From positions 32,001 to 96,000 of the IMG/VR virus record IMGVR_UViG_3300023175_000012: DNA of 64,000 nt, one strand, 5' to 3'. Every line of letters begins with the position of its first letter. The first letter of the stretch is position 1. The position numbers and the translations under genes were made by a program. Source of the DNA: a virus. Lineage: Duplodnaviria > Caudoviricetes. Shown piece after piece: positions 28,029 to 28,222 of the stretch. Below the pieces are notes generated by a model, which was not told where the DNA came from, did no database searches, and saw nothing but the letters and a program-made list of their open reading frames with translations.

Positions 28029-28110
28029 CCACTTTTTATGAAAAATTAATGATTTTCTGCAAGATTTTTGTCAAAAAGTGTGTTTAAATAATAATTGAAA
28101 GGAGATTGTT

Positions 28111-28182
28111 ATGTGGACAAAACCTAGCTATACAGAAATGCGTTTTGGCTTTGAAGTTACAATGTATGTAATGAACAAGTAA
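28111..28182 (+). CDS. pqqA: Pyrroloquinoline quinone precursor peptide PqqA (23 aa, [23 protein letters not shown])
   Basis: Hand translation; W-x-K-P leader and G-x-E-V-T-x-Y core with the Glu-x3-Tyr pair; AAGGAG RBS 6 nt upstream; TTAAATA box at 28084-28090; terminator downstream. Confidence 0.92.
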   Translation: [23 protein letters not shown]

Positions 28183-28192
28183 AACCGTAGTC

Positions 28193-28222
28193 AAAAAAAT
28201 AGGGCCCTAAGGCCCTATTTTC
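28193..28222. terminator. Bidirectional intrinsic terminator between pqqA and the major capsid gene
   Basis: AAAATAGGGCC-ctaa-GGCCCTATTTT, with an A-run on the left and a T-run on the right. Confidence 0.85.

What the first reader, a model, noticed from the sequence alone, without database searches (positions are those of the whole stretch)
28084..28222. Phage-encoded PqqA cofactor precursor peptide as a stand-alone expression unit next to the major capsid gene
Seen: a 72-nt ORF, too short for the ORF track, encoding [23 protein letters not shown], with an AAGGAG RBS, a TTAAATA box like the late-promoter boxes elsewhere in the window, and a terminator shared with the capsid gene. Established: PqqA is the ribosomal peptide whose Glu and Tyr (E-x3-Y) are cross-linked by PqqE/PqqD to make PQQ, the cofactor of methanol, alcohol and glucose dehydrogenases; each PQQ consumes one peptide. 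From memory the [12 protein letters not shown] core resembles Methylophilaceae PqqA, which needs checking. Inference: the phage supplies only the stoichiometric substrate of a host RiPP pathway (no pqqB-E in this window) to raise periplasmic dehydrogenase activity during infection, or acts as a decoy. It also hints at a methylotroph-like host.
Basis: partly seen in the sequence, partly recalled or inferred. Interest (0 to 1): 0.88.

Follow-up and report, generated by a model that had tools for sequence, protein, structure and literature searches.

The report
Phage-borne PqqA cofactor-precursor gene cassette
A giant phage carries its own copy of the tiny gene for the peptide that bacteria turn into the cofactor PQQ; it is a real host-derived helper gene, already reported once in lake viruses, that also sits unannotated in cultured phages of methanol-eating bacteria.

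Summary
Window 28111..28182 (+) is an intact 23-codon ORF that scores far above the curated cut-offs of both PqqA models (46 bits against 21.1; 47 against 20). It has an AAGGAG ribosome-binding site, a late-promoter-like TAAATA box, and the hairpin terminator of the convergent gp23 capsid gene. Its core is the Methylophilaceae type. No pqqB, C, D or E, radical-SAM or PQQ-dehydrogenase gene lies in the 116-kb record. That record is estimated only 31% complete.

The gene is an accessory cassette in a variable spacer after gp23. Only 4 of 64 evaluable close gp23 relatives have it, and it occurs in both orientations.

The same gene is intact in at least 120 IMG/VR viral contigs, none with pqqB-E nearby. 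It is also intact and unannotated in the cultured methylophages Venkman, P19250A, MEP301, MEP401/402 and Melnitz. Five complete isolate genomes have pqqA but no pqqB, D or E and no dehydrogenase.

Core codons show pN/pS of about 0.03. The best reading is a gene that supplies the one consumable substrate of the host PQQ pathway. Expression and function are untested.

Phage PqqA was already reported in Lake Baikal viruses (Coutinho 2020), so this is a new member of a known kind. Interest is moderate.

The parts
28047..28054 (+). TAATGATT upstream motif, 64 nt before the ATG and 30 nt before the TAAATA box
   Evidence: Present upstream of pqqA in 34 of 112 distinct viral upstream regions, where a random 170-mer holds it with P=0.013. 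Also present in isolates Melnitz, MEP301, P19250A and MEP402. A related host element is enriched upstream of host pqqA. Function unknown.
28068..28095 (+). sigma-70-like promoter match (TTGTCA, 16 nt, AATAAT; 10 of 12)
   Evidence: The -35 part is not conserved in relatives L105, L088 and L128, so this is a weak candidate.
28083..28093 (+). T4-late-promoter-like box TTTAAATAATA (TAAATA core at 28085-28090)
   Evidence: The TAAATA core lies upstream of 10 of 30 other ORFs against 0.6 expected. The box is conserved in L088, L105, L111 and L128.
28099..28104 (+). Shine-Dalgarno AAGGAG, 6 nt before the ATG
   Evidence: An SD-like motif lies in the 130 nt upstream in 109 of 116 viral copies.
28111..28182 (+). 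pqqA CDS, 23 codons plus stop; Glu15 and Tyr19 form the E-x3-Y pair
28196..28221 (.). bidirectional intrinsic-terminator hairpin shared with gp23
   Evidence: The hairpin region is conserved after gp23 in 14 relatives that lack pqqA, so it is gp23's own terminator.
28239..29417 (-). major capsid protein gp23, convergent neighbour
27781..27981 (-). manA-RNA-like structured element, the other neighbour, with a divergent sigma-70-like promoter at 28028..28001 (minus strand)
   Evidence: 47.4 bits, below the gathering score of 55.2; E 1.2e-10. Conserved in relatives without pqqA.
27634..27717 (-). freshwater-2 RNA motif, leader of the 151-aa ORF at 27181..27636
   Evidence: 76.6 bits; gathering score 49.9.

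Best explanation
The ORF is a genuine pqqA gene of Methylophilaceae type. A jumbo T4-like phage carries it as a small self-contained accessory cassette ('moron') in the variable spacer downstream of the capsid gene gp23.

The proposed mechanism is inferred, not shown. During infection the phage transcribes pqqA from its own promoter, most likely the TAAATA late-type box. The host PqqD/PqqE/PqqB/PqqC enzymes, which are catalysts and persist, convert the phage-made peptide into PQQ. This would keep host PQQ-dependent methanol or alcohol dehydrogenases loaded, and energy flowing, after host transcription declines. The logic is the same as cyanophage psbA.
For: Identity:
- Both curated PqqA models are passed at more than twice their cut-offs. 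Glu15 and Tyr19 are present.

Host type:
- The back-translated core found at least 120 bacterial stretches, nearly all named Methylophilaceae.

Viral setting:
- Neighbours are gp23, scaffold, the gp21 protease and the gp20 portal.

Stand-alone status:
- None of pqqB, C, D or E, radical SAM or PQQ-alcohol dehydrogenase occurs in the 116-kb record.
- 0 of 120 viral loci have pqqB-E nearby, while the same queries hit 27, 23, 19 and 17 of 120 bacterial loci.
- 0 of 5 complete isolate genomes have pqqB, pqqD, pqqE or the dehydrogenase. 5 of 5 have PqqA above the cut-off.

Selection:
- 120 of 120 viral matches are intact 23-25-aa ORFs.
- Among 7 copies found by peptide search, core codons give pN/pS 0.031 at pS 0.56.
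- 60 of 120 viral copies encode a peptide identical to a host one.

Expression signals:
- Ribosome-binding site; TAAATA box enrichment; terminator.
- 57 of 118 viral copies are followed by a terminator-like hairpin, against 3.2% of random 90-mers.

Independent carriage:
- About 11 context groups, spanning small phages, a 141-kb myovirus and jumbo phages.
Against: - Transcription or translation of this copy is not shown. No RNA-derived contig covered its promoter and 5' part. The heavy cover of the ORF core came from contigs with unlike flanks, meaning other pqqA genes.
- Only 4 of 64 evaluable close gp23 relatives carry it, so it is dispensable for this phage group.
- The record is estimated 31% complete. 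Partner genes could lie in the unseen part, and Baikal phages paired PqqA with a methanol dehydrogenase.
- Whether PqqA supply limits PQQ synthesis within a latent period is unknown.
- I did not check that the hosts of the isolates carry pqqB-E.
- The host of this phage is inferred from the peptide type alone.
Confidence: 0.75

Rival explanations
1. The gene is not truly stand-alone. It feeds a phage-encoded PQQ enzyme or dehydrogenase (xoxF/mxaF-like, or pqqB-E) that lies in the unsequenced roughly two-thirds of this jumbo genome.
For: The record is estimated 31% complete. The Baikal T4-like methylophage populations paired PqqA with methanol dehydrogenase and radical-SAM genes.
Against: No such gene lies in 116 kb. 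Five complete methylophage genomes carry pqqA without pqqB, pqqD, pqqE or the dehydrogenase. 0 of 120 viral loci show pqqB-E nearby.
Confidence: 0.12
2. The peptide is a decoy or inhibitor. It occupies host PqqD/PqqE and lowers PQQ synthesis, or otherwise manipulates the host, rather than feeding the pathway.
For: No direct evidence. The leader positions 6-7 (Ser-Tyr) of the window's peptide were found only in viral copies: 0 of 129 host copies have this peptide.
Against: Glu15 and Tyr19 and the whole core are kept. Core pN/pS is 0.031. 60 of 120 viral copies are identical to host peptides, so those would be processed like the host's own.
Confidence: 0.05
3. It is a passenger: a fragment of host DNA, a phage attachment-site remnant, or an assembly chimera, with no role for the phage.
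For: Sporadic presence, in 4 of 64 relatives. DNA is up to 90.6% identical to host copies.
Against: Identity to host DNA covers only the ribosome-binding site plus the ORF (85 nt) and never the flanks. The same cassette lies at the same site in four independent contigs, in two orientations. A phage-type TAAATA box precedes it. No degraded copies exist in the 60 evaluable relatives lacking it. There is strong purifying selection.
Confidence: 0.04
4. The unit acts mainly at the DNA or RNA level. For example, the conserved upstream TAATGATT site could titrate a host regulator of methanol-oxidation genes, or the small transcript could act as a regulatory RNA.
For: TAATGATT recurs upstream of 34 of 112 viral copies across unrelated backbones. 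It resembles the element enriched upstream of host pqqA.
Against: The pattern of synonymous against non-synonymous change shows selection on the encoded peptide. 78 of 112 viral copies lack the exact motif.
Confidence: 0.04

Closest known systems
PqqA reported in Lake Baikal T4-like viruses of Methylophilaceae (population VP_266; Coutinho et al. 2020, Microbiome; section 9 of the preprint read)
   Same: A virus-encoded PqqA precursor in T4-like phages predicted to infect Methylophilaceae, interpreted as an auxiliary metabolic gene that boosts methanol oxidation.
   Different: There it was reported with a viral methanol dehydrogenase and radical-SAM/SAM-cycle genes. Here no partner is seen in 116 kb. 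The cassette anatomy, the insertion hotspot, and the presence in cultured isolates were not described there. That paper states P19250A lacks these genes, which contradict for pqqA.
Orphan pqqA copies of Methylophilaceae genomes
   Same: Same peptide type, 23-25 aa. They are often unlinked to pqqB: 93 of 118 host copies are orphans. They are followed by a hairpin in 108 of 120 and preceded by a related upstream motif.
   Different: The phage copy has a phage late-type TAAATA box, lies between capsid and structured-RNA elements, and carries a leader variant not seen in the 129 host copies sampled.
Cyanophage psbA (D1 protein); comparison from established knowledge, recalled and not tested here
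   Same: The phage carries only the rapidly consumed component of a host energy-yielding system and relies on host machinery for the rest.
   Different: PqqA is a 23-aa ribosomal precursor destroyed to make a small-molecule cofactor, not a structural subunit. Benefit during infection is unproven.
Morons and mobile regulatory cassettes in hyperplastic regions of T4-type phages (recalled from the literature; no paper read here)
   Same: A small gene with its own promoter and terminator. It is present or absent among close relatives, sits at an intergenic hotspot, and occurs in either orientation.
   Different: I did not test whether the flanking signals match the described promoter-stem-loop cassettes. 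The recurrent TAATGATT motif seems specific to pqqA units.
Viral pqqA, pqqD and pqqE listed among phosphate-solubilising viral genes in reservoir sediments (AEM 2026, PMC13188868; passages seen)
   Same: Virus-encoded pqqA named as an auxiliary metabolic gene.
   Different: A catalogue entry only, framed around phosphate solubilisation. No anatomy or host link to methylotrophs appears in the passages seen. Its supplementary table could not be read.

Membership tests
PqqA precursor peptide (Pfam PF08042 / TIGR02107) | Score above the curated model cut-offs | tested here: met
   46 bits against 21.1; 47 bits against 20, equivalog model; 43.8 bits in the six-frame genome search.
PqqA precursor peptide (Pfam PF08042 / TIGR02107) | Conserved Glu-x3-Tyr pair that is cross-linked to build PQQ | tested here: met
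   Glu15 and Tyr19 in the translated ORF. That these are the cross-linked residues is established knowledge, also cited in the Baikal paper's references.
PqqA precursor peptide (Pfam PF08042 / TIGR02107) | Very short ribosomal peptide (about 20-40 aa) with its own start, ribosome-binding site and stop | tested here: met
   23 aa, AAGGAG 6 nt upstream, TAA stop.
PqqA precursor peptide (Pfam PF08042 / TIGR02107) | Genomic linkage to pqqB-E (classical operon) | tested here: not met
   None in the 116-kb record. Linkage is not obligatory for the family: 93 of 118 host copies sampled are also unlinked.
PqqA precursor peptide (Pfam PF08042 / TIGR02107) | Binding by PqqD, cross-linking by PqqE, conversion to PQQ | not testable with these tools
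   Needs biochemistry. The peptide is below the 30-residue minimum of the complex predictor, so no job was sent.
Phage auxiliary metabolic gene | Lies inside a bona fide viral genome, flanked by viral genes on both sides | tested here: met
   gp23, scaffold, protease and portal on one side; virion-protein-like ORFs on the other. Same site in four related viral contigs.
Phage auxiliary metabolic gene | Close host homologue with a metabolic role | tested here: met
   Methylophilaceae pqqA. DNA up to 90.6% identical over the ribosome-binding site plus ORF.
Phage auxiliary metabolic gene | Expressed during infection and beneficial to the phage | tested here: inconclusive
   RNA-run contigs gave no cover specific to this copy. 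Benefit not testable here.
Moron / accessory cassette | Own promoter and terminator; present or absent among close relatives at one site | tested here: met
   Predicted signals. 4 of 64 relatives carry it. Both orientations occur. Other cassettes occupy the same spacer.

The most novel reading that the evidence does not exclude
pqqA is the signature auxiliary gene of phages of Methylophilaceae, a 'psbA of methylotrophy'. It travels between unrelated phage backbones as a mobile unit of about 150-200 nt. The unit keeps a half-site of the host pqqA operator (TAATGATTTTC, related to the host's TCATGAAAATCATGA-type element), so phage copies plug into the host's own methanol or lanthanide-responsive control. 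In the jumbo T4-like lineage the -10 position of that unit was overwritten by a late-promoter TAAATA box, re-timing expression to late infection.
Probability: 0.35. Interest if true: 0.7.

Novelty: new member of a known kind. Interest (0 to 1): 0.5.

Why it matters
PQQ-dependent methanol and alcohol dehydrogenases are the entry point of C1 carbon in Methylophilaceae (OM43, LD28, Methylotenera), which are abundant in coastal and fresh waters. A phage gene that supplies the only stoichiometrically consumed part of PQQ synthesis would show a minimal way for viruses to sustain a host cofactor pathway: 72 nt instead of a 5-gene operon.

- The gene is not a curiosity of one metagenome. It is present, intact and under purifying selection in every cultured methylophage record the search returned, and it was missed by annotation there.
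- The hypothesis is therefore directly testable in existing phage-host cultures.
- It is a cautionary case for surveys of auxiliary genes that discard ORFs below 30 codons.

Tried and rejected
I switched to the DNA search with a degenerate back-translation of the 11-residue core. That pattern forces the core to be conserved, so those loci cannot be used to measure core conservation. For selection I used only the copies found by tblastn.
- Long versions of the upstream boxes (13-mer and 12-mer) are not enriched in the window. Only the short TAAATA core is.
- RNA evidence: 23 coded metatranscriptome runs hold 17-60% of the sampled words of 27600-29500. Laying X1-X4 gave exact contigs on gp23. 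It gave no cover of 28051-28132. Only contigs with foreign flanks lay on the ORF core. No statement on expression of this copy can be made, and no habitat is claimed.
- The attP or host-fragment idea was rejected. Identity to host DNA stops at the ORF and ribosome-binding site.
- The two 'Acinetobacter phage MD-2021a' records were dropped from the phage count. The one examined (H41) has a host-type pqqBCDE operon next to the match. H42 was not examined.
- Complex prediction was not used because the peptide is under 30 residues.
- The search for homologous proteins, the search of protein representatives, structure tools and the protein-atlas search were not used because the family assignment was already decisive.
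- Supplementary tables were closed, including the Baikal Table S1 and Table S4 of the AEM 2026 paper. They may hold contig identities or further viral pqqA records that I could not see.
- The P19250A paper (Moon 2017) was not read. Only its GenBank annotation was seen.

Full report
**1. What is there**

On the + strand, ATG at 28111 to TAA at 28180-28182 encodes [23 protein letters not shown].
- AAGGAG lies at 28099-28104, 6 nt before the start.
- Upstream lie TGTTTAAATAATA (28081-28093) and TAATGATT (28047-28054).
- Downstream, 28196-28221 forms an 11-pair hairpin (dG -16.1 kcal/mol, z -4.4; 0 of 200 shuffles fold as well), flanked by an A-run and a T-run.
- The convergent gene at 28239..29417 (minus strand) is the T4-type major capsid protein (Pfam Gp23 329 bits; phrog_138 E 2.4e-100). 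Behind it lie a scaffold-like protein, the gp21-type prohead protease and the gp20-type portal.

**2. Identity**

The peptide matches Pfam PqqA over the whole 19-position model (46 bits, cut-off 21.1, E 4.5e-12). It matches the NCBIfam equivalog TIGR02107 (47 bits, cut-off 20). Glu15 and Tyr19 form the E-x3-Y pair. It is the only PqqA match in the record.

**3. The genome**

The window is bases 32001-96000 of a 115,784-bp IMG/VR virus record. CheckV rates the record 31% complete, which implies a genome of roughly 370 kb; that size is my inference. By DNA, its gp23 is most like gp23 of 287-470-kb jumbo phages, at 66-69% identity. Several ORFs of 1846-2337 aa fill the window.

The record holds none of the following:

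| Gene family | Model |
|---|---|
| pqqE | TIGR02109 |
| pqqC | TIGR02111 |
| pqqB | TIGR02108 |
| pqqD | PF05402 |
| PQQ-dependent alcohol dehydrogenase | TIGR03075 |
| radical SAM domain | PF04055 |

For the pqqC model no control genome rang either, so that negative is weak. Because the record is a fragment, absence holds only for these 116 kb.

**4. Host type**

Of the 80 titles listed, every genus-level name is a Methylophilaceae genus except one MAG labelled Acidovorax. The genera named are Methylotenera, Methylophilus, Methylobacillus, Methylovorus, Candidatus Methylopumilus, Pseudomethylobacillus and Novimethylophilus. The remaining titles are unresolved Burkholderiales, Betaproteobacteria, Nitrosomonadales or Pseudomonadota.

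A Methylophilaceae host for this phage remains an inference from the peptide type alone.

**5. It is an accessory cassette at a hotspot, not a core gene**

I fetched the 80 best gp23 relatives (82-90% aa identity). I scanned them for any PqqA-like ORF with a loose peptide pattern.
- 64 have at least 400 nt downstream of gp23.
- 4 of those 64 carry pqqA.
- The other 60 show no degraded remnant by blastn.

Fourteen relatives without pqqA still share the hairpin immediately after gp23, so the terminator is gp23's own and pqqA borrows it. Several relatives also share the structured-RNA part of the spacer.

The gp23-to-next-gene spacer is 175-220 nt in minimal relatives. In others it holds different small genes: a 123-aa ORF, a 100-aa ORF and ORFs of about 90 aa.

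In the window and in L105 and L111, pqqA is convergent with gp23. In L088 and L128 (gp23 84-86% identical), and in the distant T4-like L095 (31%), it points the same way as gp23 and has its own hairpin. The same upstream boxes are kept in each case.

**6. Expression signals**

The TAAATA core lies at -60..-6 of 10 of 30 other large ORFs, against 0.6 expected. These include gp23, the protease and baseplate genes. This fits a T4-late-type promoter, whose consensus I recall as TATAAATA.

A sigma-70-like match (10 of 12) overlaps the box, but its -35 part is not conserved in relatives. I therefore favour late-type transcription. This is an inference, and no start site is known.

**7. Breadth in phages**

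tblastn of the peptide against 50,697 deposited phage records found 12 records.

| Record | Peptide identity |
|---|---|
| Venkman | 96% |
| an uncultured 41-kb Caudoviricetes genome | 91% |
| P19250A | 87% |
| MEP301 | 87% |
| MEP401 and MEP402 | 83% |
| four Melnitz genomes | 73% |
| two 'Acinetobacter phage MD-2021a' records | 72% |

The one MD-2021a record I examined has pqqBCDE next to the match and looks like host DNA. I excluded both.

In the six phage records I opened, the ORF is complete with a start, an SD-like motif and a stop. In none of them is it annotated, or else the opposite strand was called.

The Pfam model scores 35-41 bits in 5 of 5 isolate genomes. None of the five has pqqB, pqqD, pqqE or a PQQ-dependent alcohol dehydrogenase.

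- All 120 matches lie in intact 23-25-aa ORFs, giving 43 distinct peptides.
- 60 copies are identical to a peptide seen among 129 host copies.
- The window's exact peptide occurs in 2 viral copies and 0 host copies.
- 0 of 120 viral loci have pqqB-E in the fetched flanks. The same queries hit 27, 23, 19 and 17 of 120 bacterial loci.

I linked loci that share at least 2 ORF families. The 120 loci, six isolate or uncultured records and the window then fall into 11 groups.
- One group of 92 holds Venkman, MEP301, P19250A and the 41-kb genome.
- One group of 5 is this jumbo lineage.
- One group of 3 holds Melnitz.
- MEP402 and L095 each stand alone.

Single linkage on short contigs makes this number rough.

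**8. Selection**

I used the 7 copies found without the DNA pattern, which gives 21 pairs.

| Codons | pN/pS | pS |
|---|---|---|
| 9-19 (Glu9 to Tyr19) | 0.031 | 0.56 |
| 2-8 (leader) | 0.59 | 0.45 |
| 20-23 (tail) | 0.19 | 0.68 |

These copies were found by peptide similarity, which biases towards conservation. Even so, near-saturated synonymous change with almost no replacement in the core shows selection on the peptide.

**9. A recurrent upstream element (unexplained)**

TAATGATT lies 49-158 nt upstream of the start in 41 copies. These include the window, Melnitz, MEP301, P19250A and MEP402.
- It occurs in 34 of 112 distinct viral upstream regions, where a random 170-mer holds it with P=0.013.
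- It occurs in 10 of 118 host upstream regions.
- In 10 viral copies a TATAAT-like hexamer follows after exactly 29 nt.
- In the window the TAAATA core follows after 30 nt.

Host upstream regions are enriched for ATCATGA (54 of 118 against 2.7 expected), GAAAATC, CTAATGA and TCATTAG. T[AC]ATGA lies mostly 100-130 nt upstream, in 82 of 93 orphan and 18 of 25 operon-linked host copies. The phage motif reads like one half of that host element. This suggests the cassette was captured with part of the host promoter region, but I have not shown it.

**10. Terminators**

57 of 118 viral copies and 108 of 120 host copies have a terminator-like hairpin within 90 nt downstream. Random 90-mers show one at rates of 3.2% and 5.4% respectively.

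**11. RNA data**

See Tried and rejected. Nothing can be said about expression of this copy.

**12. What is in print**

- Coutinho et al. 2020 (preprint section 9 read in full; same work as PMC7678222, seen in a listing). They report PqqA in the T4-like Baikal population VP_266, alongside viral methanol dehydrogenase, and interpret it as boosting methanol oxidation. They also state that P19250A encodes none of these genes, which my calls contradict for pqqA.
- An AEM 2026 paper lists viral pqqA, pqqE and pqqD among phosphate-solubilising genes (passages).
- A 2024 Microbiome paper mentions PqqA as a bacterial RiPP family co-expressed with defence systems (passage).
- The MEP301, MEP401/402-lineage and Venkman papers contain no 'pqq' in their main text.
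- The Melnitz paper mentions PQQ only as a medium additive.
- Of the 60 papers holding 'pqqA' and 'phage', 25 were listed and I opened three. Supplements were closed.

**13. Verdict**

The finding is real and correctly interpreted. The kind is already known. New here are the jumbo-phage member, the cassette and hotspot anatomy, the breadth across cultured methylophages where it is unannotated, and the shared upstream motif. Function remains inferred.

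Noticed in passing
window 27634-27717 (-): Rfam freshwater-2 RNA motif (76.6 bits; gathering score 49.9) directly upstream of the 151-aa ORF at 27181..27636, preceded by a GATAAATAC box. The same leader is conserved in gp23 relatives.
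   Followed up: partly
window 27781-27981 (-), promoter-like site 28028..28001 (-): manA-RNA-like structured element (47.4 bits, below the gathering score of 55.2; E 1.2e-10) with its own sigma-70-like promoter (TTGACT, 16 nt, TATATT, with TG). It is GC-richer (0.47-0.49) than the flanks (0.26-0.33). It is conserved in relatives with and without pqqA.
   Followed up: partly
L301 4274-4645 (gp23 relative), same spacer as the pqqA site: A different 123-aa cassette ORF occupies the gp23-downstream hotspot. L267 has a 100-aa ORF there. L315 and L278 have related ORFs of about 90 aa. Not identified.
   Followed up: no
GenBank records MT375522, KX815270, MW452941, OP830907, MZ577095 and MW202481 (loci L002-L007): An intact pqqA ORF is unannotated in these deposited phage genomes. 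In Melnitz-1 and MW202481 a 'hypothetical protein' was called on the opposite strand over it.
   Followed up: yes
CAKLQF020000010.1 (L008) and CAKLQH020000055.1: Records named 'Acinetobacter phage MD-2021a' carry ppk and a full pqqBCDE operon next to the PqqA match. They look like bacterial chromosome contigs filed as phage. Only the first was examined.
   Followed up: partly
window 25-25214 (-) and 57624-63998 (+): Five giant ORFs: 2337, 2000, 1884 and 1846 aa, and one of at least 2125 aa that is open at the window end. They were not analysed and are presumably fibre or virion proteins of a jumbo phage.
   Followed up: no
window 41909-42358 (-): SegE-like GIY-YIG homing endonuclease (120.5 bits), next to Rad50/Mre11-like (gp46/gp47-type) genes at 42587..45374.
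   Followed up: no
coded RNA runs X1-X4, bin 28133-28173: Contigs holding the conserved pqqA core reach summed word depths of 4,654-19,532 in four metatranscriptome runs, far above neighbouring bins. Their flanks differ from the window, so they come from other pqqA genes. Depth of contigs is a poor measure.
   Followed up: no
host loci L129-L248: 93 of 118 Methylophilaceae pqqA copies sampled are not followed by pqqB within 700 nt, and several contigs hold two copies. Whether some orphan copies sit in prophages was not checked.
   Followed up: no
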